Shown here piece by piece: positions 26,295-52,221 of a stretch of 64,000 bases of DNA; positions within the stretch are counted from its first letter, which is position 1, and every line of letters starts with the position of its first letter. The translations under genes were made by a program, and so were the position numbers. This DNA comes from Candidatus Planktophila lacus (lineage in GTDB: Bacteria; Pseudomonadota; Gammaproteobacteria; Steroidobacterales; Steroidobacteraceae). The notes beneath the pieces were generated by a model. The model worked only from the letters and a program-made list of their open reading frames with translations. It searched no databases and had not been told where the DNA came from. The stretch covers positions 229 to 64,228 of the forward strand of contig CALQLF020000005.1 in assembly GCA_943331345.2 (NCBI GenBank). Reading direction: 5' to 3'.

Positions 26295-28091
26295 TCAGTT
26301 GCTGTTTTTAGTAATCCCCTCCCGGCCGTCTACGGTGGCGCGATGAAGGCCACCATAGAGTGTCCAACTGATGACCTGGTCCGGATGGGAGAAACGATAC
26401 CGAGCCACCCGCACTGCCGGAGAATCACCGGTGTACTGGTCTACGTATGCGTCTCCGTAGATTTCATCGACGAACCGCTTGGTGAGGTCGTATTCATTGA
26501 AGTCGCTAACCGCCGGGTCGGGCGGGGTGCAATTGGCCCGGATTACGAGCACGTTGCGGGTTACTGGCAGGGTTTCCGCCTCCCCCATCGCCCAGTTGTA
26601 GCAAGAATCGGCAGCCTGCCTAGATTCCGAGGTCCACGATTCCTCGAAAGTCATGGCTTGCTCATCAATCCTGACACGAACGGCCCGGCTGAAGTTCAAG
26701 TGCTGTGGCACCGGTTCTTTGCCACTAAAAGGCAGGGCCTGAAAGGTCCCGTTGTCGTAATAAGTAATGGTCCCAGATCCATCTGCATGCGGGTGATGGG
26801 GGCTGGCGGGGAAGCGCACAAACTTGCCTTTCGGACGTAGCACCTTGCCAGCCAGTGCACCCGTCCAACCGGCCGGATCTGCATAGATCCATTTCACCGC
26901 CCCGGTCTCCCGACTAATCCCGACCAACGCGTCCATATGCTTGAGCGAGACAATAATGGTCCTGTTCTGCTCGTCGTAGGTCACCCCGTTTCCATGCGTC
27001 CAGTCCAAGTGCCCGGGAAATCCGCGGGTAACCCAATAGGGTTGAAAGAGGTGGAAATGCACCCGCATGGGGTCGAGGTGATCGAAGCTGTTCCAGGACC
27101 AGACAACTTTTCCGCGCGCATCATACTCGATGATGGAGTCGCCCATCACCAACTGCGAGGCGCGGGGTGCCAATGGGTCCGTGACGCTGGTGAAATAGTT
27201 ATCCACACGCCGCGCATTGGCCGACATCGCAATGAATGTCCCCTCCTGCGTGGGATACGGCTCATGGTGAAGAGTCTGGACGCCGGTGATAGGTATTGCG
27301 GCTGAAGTCACCTCTTGGTCGGGGCGGAGCGCCGCGACATACTCAGCCTCAACGTTGCCCAGCATGTCGATGATGCGGGTACGCTGGTCCGCCAACGTCA
27401 TCATCAGTCGCCCGCCGGGCATTGATTGGATGCCGGCGATACGCTGCGGCGAACGATAGTACCAAACAACCTCCCCGTTCTCATCGAGGGCAATCACGAG
27501 ACCAAACTTGCGTTGAAAGTCACGTTGTCTGGGTGTCATCAGGGAACCGCGTCCCAAAAAATTTCGACGTACGGAAACGAATGTCACTCCCGCTTCCAAG
27601 CGCGAGCGGTCAAGTTCGGTCGTCTCGATCTTGGGCCATGAGAGACCGACCTCTGGTGCGTCGGGTGCCCTGAAGTCGAGTTTTGTCGGTAAGGTGGTCC
27701 ATGTGCCAGCGCTGTTTCGCAACCGAACCTGCAATTTAACTGCGGAAGATGGACGGAAACCGACGATTGGCATTCGCAACCAACCATCGCTGCCTACCGG
27801 CATCACCAACTTGTATTGCTTGGAAGGCCGATTGGCCAGACGCTCATGAACAGCTACCTCTACGGTAGCGCCGCTTTCCGCTCGCAATGACAGAACGGCT
27901 GCCAAAGGAACAGCAGGATTTGGGTTCGGCACCAACACCGGAGCACTGATGAGGCTGGGTGGCGCCATGCCGGTCTCAGATGCTGCAGGTGAAGCACCAC
28001 GGCCAAGCACAGCCATCGAACCAAGCACCAAGACGGTAGTAACCACCACCTGCGCGAAGCCAAAACGCACCACGGCGCTGCTCGACATCAT
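26295..28091 (-). CDS. aryl-sulfate sulfotransferase (ASST family), exported
   Basis: The start is taken at MMSSSAVVRF (a hydrophobic anchor follows). HHEPYPTQEGTF, IIEYDARGKVVWSWNSFDHLDP and DWTHGNGVTYDE resemble the beta-propeller ASST family. The upstream ATG at 28160 is also possible. Confidence 0.7.
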   Translation of the reverse strand: MMSSSAVVRFGFAQVVVTTVLVLGSMAVLGRGASPAASETGMAPPSLISAPVLVPNPNPAVPLAAVLSLRAESGATVEVAVHERLANRPSKQYKLVMPVGSDGWLRMPIVGFRPSSAVKLQVRLRNSAGTWTTLPTKLDFRAPDAPEVGLSWPKIETTELDRSRLEAGVTFVSVRRNFLGRGSLMTPRQRDFQRKFGLVIALDENGEVVWYYRSPQRIAGIQSMPGGRLMMTLADQRTRIIDMLGNVEAEYVAALRPDQEVTSAAIPITGVQTLHHEPYPTQEGTFIAMSANARRVDNYFTSVTDPLAPRASQLVMGDSIIEYDARGKVVWSWNSFDHLDPMRVHFHLFQPYWVTRGFPGHLDWTHGNGVTYDEQNRTIIVSLKHMDALVGISRETGAVKWIYADPAGWTGALAGKVLRPKGKFVRFPASPHHPHADGSGTITYYDNGTFQALPFSGKEPVPQHLNFSRAVRVRIDEQAMTFEESWTSESRQAADSCYNWAMGEAETLPVTRNVLVIRANCTPPDPAVSDFNEYDLTKRFVDEIYGDAYVDQYTGDSPAVRVARYRFSHPDQVISWTLYGGLHRATVDGREGITKNSN

Positions 28092-28210
28092 TCGCACCCT
28101 CACAGTACTCGCCCCTAGACGAGGTTCTCCGATGGCCCCTGACGATTCAGGACCGGACATTCAAGCACCCGCCGACCTACCGGGCGGCGAGTAACCAGAA
28201 TAGCCGTAGC

Positions 28211-50788: not shown

Positions 50789-50871
50789 TTATCTCCGCCC
50801 ATGCTAGACTTTTGGTCACCCAGAAGTGGGGTTTCGCAGAATTTGTACGGCTCGATGACGAGGATGCGCCA

Positions 50872-52221
50872 ATGACGAACAGACCACGCCCGGCGGAGGC
50901 TAGTACCGCAGTTCCCAGCAACCGTACCGCCGAGCTCATTGCCCGAGCGGCGCGGGTCATGACGAGCCGCCAGAGCAATGTCCGCGCATTGCCTGAACCT
51001 TCAATTTTCATGGAGCGAGGGCAAGGGCAGCGGACCTGGGATGTGGATGGCAACGAATTTCTGGATTTCGCTATCGCGATGGGTCCAGGCATTTGGGGCC
51101 ACGGGCACCGCGAATATCTCGACGCGGTCTACCAGCAGTTCGAAAGGCTCATGTTCGTTCAGTCGGGCGCTTGCCAGAGCGAACTCGAGGTCGAGTTAGC
51201 GGAAAAAATTGCCGAGCACGTTCCTTCTGCAGAACGAGTTCGCTTTCATTTGTCGGGTTCGGAAGCCGTCCAGATGGTGTTCCGTCTCGCCCGCGCCTAT
51301 ACGGGACGCCCGCTTTTTCTGCGTTTCGGCGGTCATTACCATGGCTGGCTGGACAACGTGCTTGGCGGTTCCCTGAATCCGGACCCGAATGCCATCCCTT
51401 TTGCTGTTGATACCGACAAGGACATCTTTTTTACAGCCGGTCGCGCTACGGGCGCCATTGCCGAGTCCCTAATGATTCCGTGGAATGACATCGGCGCCCT
51501 GGAACGGACCCTTCAAATCCATGGTCCGAAAATCTCTGTGGCCATCATGGAGCCAATCAACAGTAACGGCGGCGGTTGCCGTCCGAAGCCTGGCTACCTA
51601 GAGGCGGCGCGCGATCTTTGCCGCAAGCACGGCGTATTGCTTTGCTTCGACGAAATCATCACAGGCTTCCGCACCACGCTGGGTGGTGCCCAGCAGTTAC
51701 TGGGCGTTACTCCGGACCTTACTATTTTTGGCAAGGCCATCGCTGGTGGCGTGCCGTTGGCGGCTATTGCAGGCCGTTCGGATGTCTTCGACTTGTTCAG
51801 AACCAATCGTGTCGTCGGCGCCGGCACGTTCAATGCCTTTCCCGTCGCGATGGCAGCGGGCCTCGTAACGATGCGCATGCTCGAGCGCGACCAAGGCGCC
51901 ATTTATGCTCGTAGGAACGCCCTTCAGACTCGGCTCGAGGACGGACTTAAGAAAGCAGCCATCAATGCAGGTCATGCCATGATGACCCAAGGCATGCCAG
52001 GTAACTTCTGCAGCCACTTCGCCGACAAGGAAGCGTTCTGGACCAGCGGCGAAGTCGCTGCAGCCGCGGACCTTCCGAAAGCTATCCGCTTCAGAGCGCT
52101 GCTTCGTGAAGAGGGCATCCTCCAAGGTCTTGGCAACCGTTGGTTCGTTTCGTTCGCGCTTACCGAACAAGACGTCGACGATGCAATTGCACGCGCCAGC
52201 AAGGCATTGCAGCGTCTTTAA
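50872..52221 (+). CDS. class III (PLP-dependent) aminotransferase, glutamate-1-semialdehyde aminomutase-like
   Basis: From the ATG at 50872. It has DVDGNEFLDF, SGSEAVQMVFRLARAYTGR, FDEIITGFR, and FGKAIAGG (PLP Lys). Confidence 0.85.
   Translation: MTNRPRPAEASTAVPSNRTAELIARAARVMTSRQSNVRALPEPSIFMERGQGQRTWDVDGNEFLDFAIAMGPGIWGHGHREYLDAVYQQFERLMFVQSGACQSELEVELAEKIAEHVPSAERVRFHLSGSEAVQMVFRLARAYTGRPLFLRFGGHYHGWLDNVLGGSLNPDPNAIPFAVDTDKDIFFTAGRATGAIAESLMIPWNDIGALERTLQIHGPKISVAIMEPINSNGGGCRPKPGYLEAARDLCRKHGVLLCFDEIITGFRTTLGGAQQLLGVTPDLTIFGKAIAGGVPLAAIAGRSDVFDLFRTNRVVGAGTFNAFPVAMAAGLVTMRMLERDQGAIYARRNALQTRLEDGLKKAAINAGHAMMTQGMPGNFCSHFADKEAFWTSGEVAAAADLPKAIRFRALLREEGILQGLGNRWFVSFALTEQDVDDAIARASKALQRL

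What the first reader, a model, noticed from the sequence alone, without database searches (positions are those of the whole stretch)
26295..52221. About 26 kb compositionally distinct catabolic island with no mobility genes and unknown substrate
Composition changes between the scoA start (26217) and the convergent junction at 52221/52233. My hand counts of single 60-nt lines give about 63% G+C in mnmG (9001-9060), about 53% in the sulfatase gene (34081-34140), and about 37% in the spacer at 30541-30600. Long A/T-rich intergenic spacers (30530-30867, 39836-40034, 43445-43672, 50582-50871) occur only here. The REP elements that pepper both flanks are absent inside the block. The gene content is coherent for uptake and oxidation of an exogenous organic compound:
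- two TonB-dependent receptors and two paralogous MFS transporters
- an aryl-sulfate sulfotransferase and an arylsulfatase
- an FAD aromatic hydroxylase, an aryl-alcohol-type ADH, two ALDHs, two SDRs and a VOC protein
- a class III aminotransferase, a split 2-oxoacid dehydrogenase and its own GntR regulator
I see no integrase, transposase, tRNA or flanking direct repeat. I do not recognise this gene combination as any named pathway.
Basis: partly seen in the sequence, partly recalled or inferred. Interest (0 to 1): 0.7.

Follow-up and report, generated by a model that had tools for sequence, protein, structure and literature searches.

The report
Recombination-spread aryl-sulfate catabolic genomic island
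A 25.9-kb block of foreign DNA carrying a repressor-controlled gene set, probably for taking up and breaking down a sulfated phenolic compound, sits in some strains of an uncultured freshwater bacterium and is missing from close relatives; it seems to move between lineages by ordinary homologous recombination, and its substrate is still unknown.

Summary

**Composition and limits.** The block is 57.3% G+C against 63-65% in the flanks, with lower GC3 and a doubled tetranucleotide distance. Its exact limits are 26310-52238.

**It is an insertion.**
- Four related contigs have an empty site in which the yjjJ-like gene (52233-53492) is followed 78 bp later by scoA.
- The insertion split the last codons of that gene.
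- There is no target duplication, integrase, transposase or tRNA.

**How it spreads.**
- A second host lineage carries the same block at the same junction at 99.3-100% identity.
- The flanks of that lineage are only about 89% identical to the window. Island-free lineages are closer, at 91.5-96%.
- Identity collapses about 270 bp and 30-140 bp outside the two ends.
- The block therefore spreads by homologous recombination in the flanks.

**Origin.** 20 of its 22 genes have orthologues (43-86% amino-acid identity) in a roughly 30-kb cluster of freshwater Sphingorhabdus-type alphaproteobacteria.

**Regulation.** The operator-like motif TGTRCAACA is shared with those clusters. In the window it occurs only in the four A/T-rich spacers.

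**Function (inferred).** The block most likely takes up, desulfates and oxidises a sulfated phenolic compound. No named pathway matches.

**Verdict.** A real, ordinary kind of island with an uncharacterised pathway.

The parts
26310..52238 (.). The inserted island (25,929 bp)
   Evidence: Alignment of both junctions with the empty sites L099-L102. G+C is 0.573 against 0.630 and 0.649 in the flanks.
26218..26309 (-). Native DNA left of the island: the last 4 codons and stop of the original yjjJ-like gene (26295-26309, now used as the end of the sulfotransferase gene), then the 77-bp native spacer before scoA
   Evidence: Collinear with the empty-site sequence ...AAAAACGGCAACTGA + spacer + scoA ATG.
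26295..28088 (-). Aryl-sulfate sulfotransferase homologue (ASST), N-terminal hydrophobic signal-like segment
   Evidence: PF05935 at 167 bits. His356 and His436 of E. coli AssT are aligned and conserved, and Arg374 is Lys. 66-68% identical to the Sphingorhabdus-type proteins over the whole protein. Its own C-terminus is replaced by host codons.
28211..30529 (-). TonB-dependent receptor 1
   Evidence: Plug and barrel domains. 76-79% identical to receptors in the sphingomonad cluster (68% in L110).
30530..30867 (.). A/T-rich divergent control region with two operator-like sites (30588-30596 on +, 30763-30771 on -)
   Evidence: G+C 0.426. TGTGCAACA occurs twice.
30868..32061 (+). MFS transporter 1 (gene callers start it at 30922)
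   Evidence: PF07690, weak. 68% identical to the MFS gene next to the aminotransferase in L124.
32058..33653 (-). Group A FAD aromatic-ring monooxygenase (531 aa)
   Evidence: PF01494 and Rng_hyd_C. Nearest NCBIfam model PRK06126. Nearest structures RebC and polyketide oxygenases.
33650..35452 (-). Cys-type arylsulfatase with a signal peptide
   Evidence: E 1e-139 to P. aeruginosa arylsulfatase 1HDH. CSPTR motif at residues 86-90.
35456..36271 (-). Short-chain dehydrogenase 1
   Evidence: adh_short. No orthologue in the sphingomonad DNA fetched.
36296..36736 (-). Single-domain VOC (glyoxalase-fold) protein, 146 aa
   Evidence: PF00903. 52-57% identical to sphingomonad orthologues.
36783..37022 (-). 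Free-standing lipoyl-carrier protein, 79 aa, with an ETDKV lipoylation motif
   Evidence: tblastn with the Sphingorhabdus 79-aa protein. Translation. Best NCBIfam match is the lipoyl domain of acetoin dehydrogenase E2. Called as a gene in L116-L121.
37019..38008 (-). E1 beta subunit (thiamine-diphosphate enzyme)
   Evidence: Transket_pyr and Transketolase_C. PDH E1-beta-like, below cut-off.
38008..39030 (-). E1 alpha subunit
   Evidence: E1_dh. TIGR03182 at 302 bits against a cut-off of 394. Nearest structures are mitochondrial-type PDH E1 alpha.
39056..39835 (-). E2 acyltransferase, catalytic domain only (259 aa)
   Evidence: PF00198 matches only profile positions 4-231, and the protein has no lipoyl domain. 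No orthologue in the sphingomonad DNA fetched.
39836..40034 (.). A/T-rich control region with an operator-like site at 39950-39958
40035..41132 (-). Zn-dependent alcohol dehydrogenase
   Evidence: ADH_N and ADH_zinc_N. Nearest NCBIfam models are class III and NDMA-dependent ADH, below cut-off.
41211..41939 (-). GntR-family regulator with an FCD ligand domain
   Evidence: PF00392 and PF07729. 59-61% identical to the sphingomonad cluster regulator.
41936..43444 (-). Aldehyde dehydrogenase 1, nearest to phenylacetaldehyde dehydrogenase StyD
   Evidence: NF045735 at 569 bits against a cut-off of 850.
43445..43672 (.). A/T-rich divergent control region with an operator-like site at 43472-43480
43673..45115 (+). 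Aldehyde dehydrogenase 2
   Evidence: Aldedh. 58-59% identical to the sphingomonad orthologue.
45127..46311 (+). MFS transporter 2
   Evidence: MFS_1. Weak similarity to the aromatic acid/H+ symporter family.
46332..47129 (-). Short-chain dehydrogenase 2
   Evidence: adh_short_C2. 52-55% identical to the sphingomonad orthologue.
47134..47607 (-). Secreted MoaF-like beta-barrel protein 1
   Evidence: Signal-like N-terminus. AF2 model with pLDDT 87. Fold matches phenolic acid decarboxylases and MoaF, TM 0.6, E 1e-6. 32 of 41 family members hit PF22036 and 32 hit PF10703.
47662..48168 (-). Secreted MoaF-like beta-barrel protein 2
   Evidence: Same family. 86% identical to the L124 orthologue.
48233..50581 (-). 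TonB-dependent receptor 2 (782 aa)
   Evidence: Plug and barrel domains. 76% identical to the L124 orthologue. Start as called in L011 and L120.
50582..50871 (.). A/T-rich divergent control region with an operator-like site at 50642-50650
50872..52221 (+). Class III aminotransferase of the glutamate-semialdehyde-aminomutase-like branch
   Evidence: PF00202. Nearest structures are GSAM, beta-phenylalanine and D-phenylglycine aminotransferases. Homologues at 68-82% lie beside TonB receptors.
52233..53492 (-). Host yjjJ-like gene whose 3' end was the insertion target. Its last codon and stop (52233-52238) are supplied by the island.
   Evidence: Protein alignment with relatives that keep the native tail ...PGAKNGN. 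Weak N-terminal match to YjjJ.
25516..26217 (-). Host scoA, left neighbour of the insertion site. A recombination breakpoint lies near 26025-26041.

Best explanation
Window 26310-52238 is a horizontally acquired, strain-variable genomic island in an uncultured freshwater gammaproteobacterium.

**Origin and spread.**
- It entered once, by illegitimate recombination into the last codons of a yjjJ-like gene just upstream of scoA.
- It has no mobility genes of its own.
- It moves between related lineages when incoming DNA recombines through the conserved flanking genes. The island, plus a few tens to hundreds of flanking bases, replaces the empty allele.
- Its gene set is a rearranged copy of a roughly 30-kb cluster conserved in freshwater Sphingorhabdus-type alphaproteobacteria.

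**Regulation.** It forms one regulon under its own GntR/FCD repressor, which is inferred to bind TGT-N3-ACA sites (TGTRCAACA) in the four A/T-rich promoter regions.

**Function (inferred, not shown).** The substrate is probably a sulfated phenolic compound carrying an oxidisable C2/C3 alcohol, aldehyde or amine side chain.
1. It crosses the outer membrane through the two TonB-dependent receptors.
2. In the periplasm the aryl sulfotransferase homologue and the secreted arylsulfatase remove the sulfate. The two PAD/MoaF-fold barrels bind or process the compound.
3. The MFS carriers import it.
4. The class III aminotransferase, ADH, the two ALDHs and the SDRs oxidise the side chain.
5. An acetoin/pyruvate-dehydrogenase-like system shortens it to an acyl-CoA. 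That system comes in separate pieces: E1 alpha and beta, a free lipoyl carrier and a catalytic-only E2.
6. The FAD monooxygenase hydroxylates the ring for cleavage by host pathways.
For: **Insertion (shown).**
- Composition differs from the flanks.
- Empty sites occur in L099-L102, whose flank proteins are 93-100% identical to the window in L099-L101 and mostly 75-98% in L102 (one spurious ORF lower).
- The native gene tail is split across the two junctions.
- The same junction is seen in more than 20 independent assemblies.

**Spread by homologous recombination (shown at sequence level).**
- In lineage B (L116-L123) the island is 99.3-100% identical to the window, but the flanks are only 77-95% identical.
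- Mismatch-free DNA runs from the island end to 26041 or 26025 on the left. On the right, mismatches are sparse to 52356 and dense from 52380.
- Other breakpoints are seen in L008 and L012.
- Island-free lineages C and D are closer to the window in both flanks (91.5-96%) than island-bearing lineage B is (88-90%).

**Sphingomonad relationship (shown).** Syntenic orthologues at 43-86% occur in L103-L115 and L124, including one contig from a Sphingorhabdus sp. genome.

**Regulon (inferred from motif enrichment and conservation).**
- There are 5 exact TGTRCAACA sites against 0.73 expected; 0 of 100 shuffles reached 5. All 5 lie in the four spacers.
- The same motif occupies the corresponding intergenic regions of seven sphingomonad loci.

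**Function (inferred from families).**
- The ASST catalytic histidines are conserved.
- The sulfatase matches PAS at E 1e-139 and has a CSPTR motif.
- ALDH1 is nearest to StyD.
- The FAD enzyme is nearest to RebC and polyketide ring oxygenases.
- The small proteins have a PAD/MoaF fold.
- The lipoyl protein is nearest to the acetoin-dehydrogenase E2 lipoyl domain.
- Most sphingomonad versions replace the FAD monooxygenase with a gentisate-type ring-cleavage module, which points to an aromatic core.
Against: - No enzyme reaches an equivalog cut-off, so no reaction is assigned with confidence.
- The island has no ring-cleavage dioxygenase, no E3 and no formylglycine-generating enzyme. The pathway is incomplete without host functions that I could not inspect.
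- The ASST is only distantly related to characterised enzymes (E 3e-10 to 3ELQ), and Arg374 is Lys.
- The physiological role of this enzyme class is generally unknown (PMC13426309).
- The immediate donor was not found. The best outside homologues are 66-86% identical.
- The recombination route (transformation, conjugation or transduction) is not determined.
- Host taxonomy rests on one NCBI protein name, 'Gammaproteobacteria'.
Confidence: 0.6

Rival explanations
1. The block is a sulfur-scavenging island expressed under sulfate starvation. The receptor, sulfotransferase and sulfatase release sulfate from ester sulfates, as in the ats/sft cluster of Pseudomonas putida S-313. The oxidoreductases only detoxify the leftover phenols.
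For: A TonB receptor, an aryl sulfotransferase and an arylsulfatase are adjacent. One sphingomonad version carries a Cds1-like cysteine desulfhydrase. The resemblance to the P. putida S-313 cluster is from my own knowledge (Kahnert et al. 2002, not in the library).
Against: - Sixteen of the 22 genes are carbon-oxidising enzymes or extra transporters.
- The regulator is a GntR/FCD protein with its own conserved operators, not a CysB/SftR-type LysR regulator.
- There is no AtsRBC ABC transporter and no AtsK.
- Sphingomonad versions are joined to a complete gentisate-type ring-cleavage module.
Confidence: 0.15
2. The substrate is not a sulfate ester. The cluster degrades an aromatic amine or amino alcohol (monoamine type), and the sulfotransferase and sulfatase are accessory, as in the Klebsiella monoamine regulon that links moaF, arylsulfatase and tyramine oxidase.
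For: - MoaF-like proteins are present.
- The class III aminotransferase is near beta-phenylalanine and D-phenylglycine aminotransferases.
- ALDH1 resembles StyD.
- The contig with the closest aminotransferase homologue (82%) carries an amine-oxidase-like flavoprotein, two receptors and maleylpyruvate-type genes.
- The link to the Klebsiella regulon is from my own knowledge.
Against: ASST and the sulfatase are among the best conserved and most central genes of the sphingomonad cluster (66-75% identity). Both are secreted, next to the receptor. The two readings are not exclusive, because a sulfated phenolic amine fits both.
Confidence: 0.15
3. The block is ancestral and was deleted in the relatives that show the empty site.
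For: Presence or absence alone cannot give direction.
Against: - The block has foreign composition.
- Empty sites carry an intact, conserved gene tail whose two halves lie at opposite ends of the block. There is no repeat that could drive a precise excision.
- The island is near-identical across hosts whose flanks differ by 10%.
Confidence: 0.03
4. The junctions are a metagenome assembly chimera joining a sphingomonad contig to a gammaproteobacterial contig.
For: All sequences come from metagenome assemblies.
Against: - Identical junctions occur in more than 20 contigs from at least five sequencing projects and several assemblers.
- The island is only 43-86% identical at protein level to the sphingomonad cluster, and its gene order differs.
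Confidence: 0.01

Closest known systems
Flexible genomic islands exchanged by homologous recombination of flanking core genes (described for aquatic bacterial populations; my own knowledge)
   Same: - Presence/absence polymorphism at one chromosomal site.
- No integrase or repeats.
- Near-identical cargo in diverged backgrounds.
- Recombination breakpoints in the flanking core genes.
   Different: Here the cargo is a whole 22-gene catabolic regulon of cross-class (alphaproteobacterial-type) ancestry. The founding illegitimate junction can be read to the base.
Uncharacterised roughly 30-kb cluster of freshwater Sphingorhabdus-type Sphingomonadales
   Same: - 20 of 22 genes are orthologous at 43-86% identity.
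- Local gene blocks are shared: TBDR2-MoaF-MoaF next to the aminotransferase, E1a-E1b, and the sulfatase with the FAD enzyme.
- The GntR regulator and the TGTRCAACA operator positions are shared.
   Different: - Gene order is rearranged.
- The island adds a catalytic-only E2 and a second SDR.
- It moves the lipoyl gene next to E1 beta.
- It lacks the gentisate-type module and the Cds1-like gene that most sphingomonad versions have.
ats/sft sulfate-ester utilisation cluster of Pseudomonas putida S-313 (my own knowledge; paper not in the library)
   Same: A TonB-dependent receptor, an aryl sulfotransferase and a PAS-type arylsulfatase are encoded together.
   Different: - No LysR regulator SftR, no AtsRBC ABC transporter and no AtsK dioxygenase.
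- Here the trio is embedded in carbon-catabolic genes under a GntR regulator.
Acetoin dehydrogenase enzyme system AcoABC(L) and the pyruvate dehydrogenase complex
   Same: Heterodimeric thiamine-diphosphate E1 alpha and beta of the PDH/Aco type, a lipoyl domain nearest to that of AcoC, and an E2 catalytic domain.
   Different: - The lipoyl domain is a separate 79-aa protein.
- The E2 is the catalytic domain alone, with no lipoyl domain.
- There is no E3 gene.
- All scores are below the equivalog cut-offs.
- The sphingomonad DNA fetched has E1 and the lipoyl protein without any E2.
Klebsiella monoamine regulon (atsBA, moaR, moaEF, maoA; my own knowledge) and phenolic acid decarboxylases
   Same: MoaF-family barrels are encoded beside an arylsulfatase and an amine-converting enzyme. 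The fold equals PAD/MoaF.
   Different: - The two proteins are short, secreted, single-domain forms of a rare family: 45 representative clusters among 1.8 billion proteins.
- An aminotransferase replaces the amine oxidase.
- Decarboxylase activity was not tested.

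Membership tests
Horizontally acquired genomic island | Base composition and codon usage differ from the surrounding chromosome | tested here: met
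   G+C 0.573 against 0.630 and 0.649. GC3 0.54-0.68 against 0.66-0.81. The 4-mer distance doubles.
Horizontally acquired genomic island | Present in some close relatives and absent in others, with an intact empty site | tested here: met
   L099-L102 have the yjjJ-like gene, 78 bp, then scoA. Flank proteins are 93-100% identical in L099-L101.
Horizontally acquired genomic island | History of the island disagrees with the history of the flanking core genes | tested here: met
   The island is 99.3-100% identical between lineages A and B, whose flanks are 88-90% identical. Island-free lineages C and D are 91.5-96% identical to A.
Self-mobile integrative element (ICE, IME, prophage, transposon) | Integrase, recombinase or transposase gene; attachment repeats or target duplication; tRNA target | tested here: not met
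   No such domain in any of the 22 genes. No room for one in the spacers, which are at most 338 bp. No tRNA. No end repeats beyond chance.
PAPS-independent aryl sulfotransferase (AssT/ASST, PF05935) | Family domain above the curated threshold | tested here: met
   167 bits against a cut-off of 24.2.
PAPS-independent aryl sulfotransferase (AssT/ASST, PF05935) | Catalytic histidine that is transiently sulfated (His436 of E. coli AssT) and His356 | tested here: met
   Both are aligned to histidines that are invariant in the 13-sequence alignment. The mechanism is as described in PMC13426309.
PAPS-independent aryl sulfotransferase (AssT/ASST, PF05935) | Arg374 of the E. coli active site | tested here: inconclusive
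   It is aligned to an invariant Lys.
PAPS-independent aryl sulfotransferase (AssT/ASST, PF05935) | Sulfuryl transfer between phenols | not testable with these tools
   Needs an enzyme assay.
Formylglycine-dependent (type I) arylsulfatase | Sulfatase domain, C-x-P-x-R maturation motif and close similarity to a characterised arylsulfatase | tested here: met
   PF00884 at 196 bits. CSPTR at residues 86-90. E 1e-139 to P. aeruginosa PAS 1HDH.
Formylglycine-dependent (type I) arylsulfatase | Maturation enzyme (FGE or anSME) available | tested here: not met
   None is encoded among the ORFs scanned in the island and its near flanks. It may lie elsewhere in the genome.
2-oxoacid / acetoin dehydrogenase multienzyme complex | E1 alpha and beta, lipoyl domain with lipoyl-lysine, and E2 catalytic domain | tested here: met
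   The three E2-related functions are on separate polypeptides.
2-oxoacid / acetoin dehydrogenase multienzyme complex | Single E2 chain joining the lipoyl, subunit-binding and catalytic domains; dedicated E3 | tested here: not met
   The lipoyl domain is a 79-aa protein. The E2 is 259 aa and matches only the catalytic domain. There is no E3 gene.
2-oxoacid / acetoin dehydrogenase multienzyme complex | Equivalog-level match to PDH, BCKDH, OGDH or Aco | tested here: not met
   All scores are below cut-off: E1a 302 against 394, E1b 278 against 321, E2 268 against 445.
GntR/FadR-subfamily regulon | Winged-helix GntR domain plus an FCD effector domain | tested here: met
   PF00392 and PF07729.
GntR/FadR-subfamily regulon | Palindromic T-GT-N3-AC-A operators in the promoters of the controlled genes | tested here: met
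   5 TGTRCAACA sites against 0.73 expected, all in the four spacers. They are conserved at the corresponding positions in seven sphingomonad loci. Binding itself was not tested.
P. putida S-313 ats/sft sulfate-ester cluster | LysR regulator SftR, AtsRBC ABC transporter and AtsK alkylsulfatase | tested here: not met
   No LysR, ABC-transporter or TauD-family domain in the island.
MoaF / phenolic acid decarboxylase fold | Eight-stranded calycin-like barrel matching PAD or MoaF structures | tested here: met
   Model pLDDT 87. Foldseek E 1e-6 and TM 0.6 to PADs and to 4Q51.
MoaF / phenolic acid decarboxylase fold | Pfam MoaF above the gathering score; PAD catalytic residues | tested here: inconclusive
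   The two window proteins score 20.8 and 18.2 against a cut-off of 23.3. 32 of 41 family members hit MoaF_like and 32 hit MoaF at E up to 0.01. Catalytic residues were not aligned rigorously.

The most novel reading that the evidence does not exclude
The island and its sphingomonad relatives may encode a so far undescribed catabolic pathway for sulfated phenolic compounds of aquatic origin.
- A PAPS-independent aryl sulfotransferase would have a dedicated physiological role in the periplasm, next to a secreted arylsulfatase and PAD-fold barrels.
- An unusual multi-part thiamine/lipoyl system (E1 alpha/beta, a free lipoyl carrier and a catalytic-only E2) would cleave the side chain.
- The whole regulon would have crossed from Alphaproteobacteria to Gammaproteobacteria and would now be sweeping through freshwater lineages by flank recombination.
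Probability: 0.3. Interest if true: 0.65.

Novelty: new member of a known kind. Interest (0 to 1): 0.5.

Why it matters
**Gene flow.** The locus is a clean natural example of a large catabolic regulon spreading without any mobility machinery. The founding junction, several recombination breakpoints and the empty allele are all readable in public metagenomes. It could therefore be used to measure gene flow between freshwater lineages.

**Enzyme function.** The physiological roles and natural substrates of bacterial PAPS-independent aryl sulfotransferases are said to be poorly understood (PMC13426309). Here one sits in a conserved, regulator-defined gene set with a predicted operator. That gives concrete handles for finding the natural substrate: a ligand screen on the GntR protein, reporter fusions, and enzyme assays.

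**Limits.** The enzymes belong to familiar families. Islands that spread by homologous recombination are a known phenomenon.

Tried and rejected
1. **Genome-contig scan with scoA.** The protein is too conserved. The best 80 loci were 75-84% identical Lysobacteraceae and Burkholderiales with no shared synteny. Relatives came instead from homologues of the fast-evolving yjjJ-like protein.
2. **Rfam and tRNA scans.** Nothing was found.
3. **End repeats or microhomology at the junctions.** Only one inverted 8-mer was shared, which is the chance expectation.
4. **Six literature searches**. They covered:
   - the gene combination;
   - Sphingorhabdus sulfatase clusters;
   - the P. putida sft cluster;
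   - the monoamine regulon;
   - degradation of sulfated phenolics.

   No paper describes this cluster. Only a review on aryl sulfotransferases was useful.
5. **Estrogen-sulfate degradation, lignin beta-aryl-ether, mandelate and taurine pathways.** I considered these from memory and rejected them as memberships, because their defining enzymes are absent. Those enzymes are a P450 or flavin 4-hydroxylase with a two-domain extradiol dioxygenase, GST etherases, and Xsc.
6. **REP absence as evidence of foreignness.** Downgraded, because the 8 copies form only 4 clusters.
7. **The contig with the closest aminotransferase homologue (82%).** No DNA was on file for it.

Full report
**1.

G+C in 2-kb windows is 0.60-0.67 up to about 26 kb. 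It is 0.54-0.60 from 26 to 52 kb, and 0.63-0.67 afterwards.

Measured between the exact limits found below:
- The block is 57.3% G+C, against 63.0% in the left flank and 64.9% in the right.
- Third-codon-position G+C is 0.54-0.68 in the 21 island genes scored and 0.66-0.81 in real flank genes.
- The tetranucleotide distance to the flank profile roughly doubles inside the block.

There is no tRNA and no Rfam family. No ORF has a recombinase or transposase domain. The two ends share no repeat beyond chance.

The REP-like element GGAGCGAGCTTGCTCGCGAC has 8 copies, all outside the block. They cluster at four places, so this argument is weak on its own.

**2. Gene content**

Corrections to that list:
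- A free-standing 79-aa lipoyl-domain protein (36783-37022, - strand, ETDKV motif) lies between E1 beta and the VOC gene.
- The E2 gene (39056-39835) encodes the catalytic domain only.
- The ADH is not specifically of the aryl-alcohol type.
- The two small proteins at 47134-48168 are secreted MoaF-like barrels.
  - Their family is rare: 45 representative clusters among 1.8 billion proteins.
  - 32 of 41 members hit MoaF_like and 32 hit MoaF.
  - The AlphaFold model (pLDDT 87) matches phenolic acid decarboxylases and a MoaF structure at TM about 0.6.

Further details on individual enzymes:
- The sulfatase is a close homologue of P. aeruginosa arylsulfatase (E 1e-139). It has a CSPTR maturation motif and a signal peptide.
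- The sulfotransferase homologue keeps the histidines that align with His356 and the sulfated His436 of E. coli AssT (mechanism in PMC13426309).

**3. It is an insertion, and the junction can be read to the base**

Every contig with an identical scoA or an identical right-hand neighbour carries the block.

The right-hand neighbour (52233-53492) is a fast-evolving yjjJ-like protein. Its homologues at 75-87% identity led to four contigs (L099-L102) in which that gene is followed after 78 bp by scoA. In L099-L101 the flank proteins are 93-100% identical to the window.

Aligning the junctions gives this picture:
- The native gene ends ...PGAKNGN-stop.
- In the window, the sequence up to ...PGA is at 52239 and upward.
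- The codons KN(S)N-stop are at 26309-26295.
- The block is therefore 26310-52238 (25,929 bp).
- The host gene now ends with one codon and a stop supplied by the island.
- The sulfotransferase gene has lost its own stop region and ends in the host's last four codons.
- There is no duplication and no microhomology.

A precise deletion that restored an intact conserved gene tail is implausible. The empty site is therefore the ancestral state.

**4. How it moves**

A variant of the receptor protein led to a second set of contigs (L116-L123, from other lakes and projects). They carry the block at the same junction.

| Comparison with the window | Nucleotide identity |
|---|---|
| Island in lineage B (L116-L123), all 26 kb | 99.3-100% |
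| scoA and scoB in lineage B | 92-95% |
| Rest of the left flank in lineage B | 77-92% |
| Right flank in lineage B | 79-93% |

The switch is abrupt:
- On the left there is no mismatch from 26352 down to 26041 or 26025, about 270 bp beyond the island end. Mismatches are dense inside scoA after that.
- On the right the first mismatches are at 52268 and 52356, and they are dense from 52380.
- Other island-bearing contigs show other breakpoints: L012 near 53.5 kb and L008 near 23.5 kb.

In both flanks the window lineage is closer to the island-free lineages C and D (91.5-96%) than to island-bearing lineage B (88-90%).

The simplest reading is one founding insertion, followed by transfer among diverged lineages through homologous recombination in the flanking core genes. 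This explains why the island needs no mobility genes. How the DNA enters the cell is not known.

**5. Where it came from**

Outside this species complex, the nearest homologues of the sulfotransferase are 66-68% identical over the whole protein. One is named Sphingorhabdus sp..

Around them, in a Sphingorhabdus genome contig (L103), a 3-Mb contig (L105) and ten metagenome loci (L106-L115), lies a conserved cluster. Its layout, with '/' marking a change of strand, is:
- SDR or MoaF, VOC, E1b, E1a, GntR, ALDH /
- MFS, receptor, free lipoyl protein, ASST /
- FAD monooxygenase or a gentisate-type module, sulfatase, ADH, ALDH.

A further locus on the same contig as one of these (L124) extends it with MoaF, MoaF, receptor 2 / aminotransferase, MFS. 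Identities to the window there are 68-86%.

Twenty of the 22 island genes thus have orthologues there, at 43-86% identity. Only the catalytic E2 and the first SDR have none in the DNA fetched. Order and orientation differ, and identity is too low for these to be the direct donor. G+C of those loci (0.53-0.61) is like that of the island.

The host is labelled only 'Gammaproteobacteria' by NCBI.

**6. One regulon**

All five exact occurrences of TGTRCAACA in the window fall in the four A/T-rich spacers. 0.73 occurrences are expected, and 0 of 100 shuffles reached five. The motif has the T-GT-N3-AC-A form typical of GntR/FadR-type operators (my own knowledge).

The same motif sits in the corresponding intergenic regions of seven sphingomonad loci:
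- between E1a and GntR;
- between ALDH and MFS;
- upstream of receptor 1;
- upstream of the ALDH-ADH-sulfatase operon;
- between receptor 2 and the aminotransferase.

The spacers are therefore promoter and operator regions of the island's own regulator. This is inferred; binding was not tested.

**7. What it probably does**

*Shown:* the protein families, their likely compartments, and their conserved association.

*Inferred:* a pathway for a sulfated phenolic compound.
- Two receptors, a sulfotransferase, a secreted arylsulfatase and two PAD-fold barrels act in the envelope.
- Two MFS carriers import the product.
- A class III aminotransferase of the branch that contains beta-phenylalanine and D-phenylglycine aminotransferases, an ADH, a StyD-like ALDH and a second ALDH, and two SDRs work on a side chain.
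- A PDH/acetoin-dehydrogenase-like E1 with a free lipoyl carrier and a catalytic-only E2 would yield an acyl-CoA.
- A group A flavin monooxygenase, nearest to RebC and polyketide oxygenases, hydroxylates the ring.

An aromatic core is supported by the sphingomonad variants. Most of them replace the flavin monooxygenase with four genes:
- a gentisate-dioxygenase-like cupin;
- a maleylacetoacetate/maleylpyruvate-type GST isomerase (above cut-off);
- a fumarylpyruvate-type hydrolase;
- a 3-hydroxybenzoate-6-hydroxylase-like enzyme.

No enzyme reaches an equivalog threshold. The island lacks ring cleavage, E3 and a formylglycine-generating enzyme. The substrate cannot be named. Sulfur scavenging and a non-sulfated aromatic amine are the main functional rivals.

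**8. Comparison with what is known**

- As an element, it belongs to the known class of flexible islands exchanged by recombination of flanks. It fails every test for a self-mobile element.
- Its receptor, sulfotransferase and arylsulfatase trio recalls the P. putida S-313 ats/sft cluster. The pairing of MoaF-like proteins with a sulfatase and an amine-converting enzyme recalls the Klebsiella monoamine regulon. Both resemblances are from memory. The defining regulators and transporters of those systems are absent.
- The thiamine/lipoyl system works like an acetoin or pyruvate dehydrogenase but is not a member at equivalog level, and it is split in an unusual way.
- No paper in the library describes the cluster.
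- A 2026 review states that natural substrates and physiological roles of these sulfotransferases are mostly unknown.

**9. Verdict**

It is a new member of a known kind of element that carries an uncharacterised but conventional-looking catabolic regulon.

Its value lies in two things:
- the unusually clear record of acquisition and spread;
- a defined regulatory and genomic context for an aryl sulfotransferase.

Interest is 0.5. Confidence is about 0.95 for the island and its recombinational spread, and about 0.5 for the sulfated-phenolic function.

Noticed in passing
window 52940-53111 (inside the gene 52233-53492, - strand): Three to four copies of the REP-like element lie in frame inside the yjjJ-like coding sequence, giving SELARDSRQQAAS peptide repeats. 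Copy number varies among relatives (0-3 extra copies), so the repeat expands within a gene without breaking it.
   Followed up: partly
window about 15452-16700 (- strand): A bufferin-type operon (BufA1 precursor plus an MbnB/DUF692 enzyme) lies in the left flank. Gene calls on the matching contigs show it.
   Followed up: no
window 17583-23292: The RND efflux operon is a strong recombination mosaic. Nucleotide identity between closely related strains swings between 77% and 100% in 500-bp bins.
   Followed up: partly
L105 11855-15574; also L106, L107, L110-L112 and L115: Most sphingomonad versions of the cluster carry a four-gene gentisate-type ring-cleavage module exactly where L103, L104 and the window carry the 531-aa FAD monooxygenase. 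This is a modular swap inside a conserved cluster.
   Followed up: partly
L124 5171-6250: A Cds1-like L-cysteine desulfhydrase (534 bits against a cut-off of 600) sits inside the sphingomonad cluster next to the MoaF-like genes. The window island has no counterpart.
   Followed up: no
L122 996-2502: The ALDH1 orthologue is split into two ORFs (221 and 277 aa) in one island-bearing contig. This is either a pseudogene or an assembly error.
   Followed up: no
L103-L115: The fetched sphingomonad loci encode E1 alpha and beta and the free lipoyl protein, but no E2 catalytic domain within 10 kb of the sulfotransferase gene. How an acyl-lipoyl intermediate would be discharged there is unclear.
   Followed up: no
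window 55003-56265 (- strand): This long ORF has no family match and atypical GC3 (0.60). Gene calls on related contigs place an amino-acid permease on the opposite strand, so the ORF is probably spurious.
   Followed up: no
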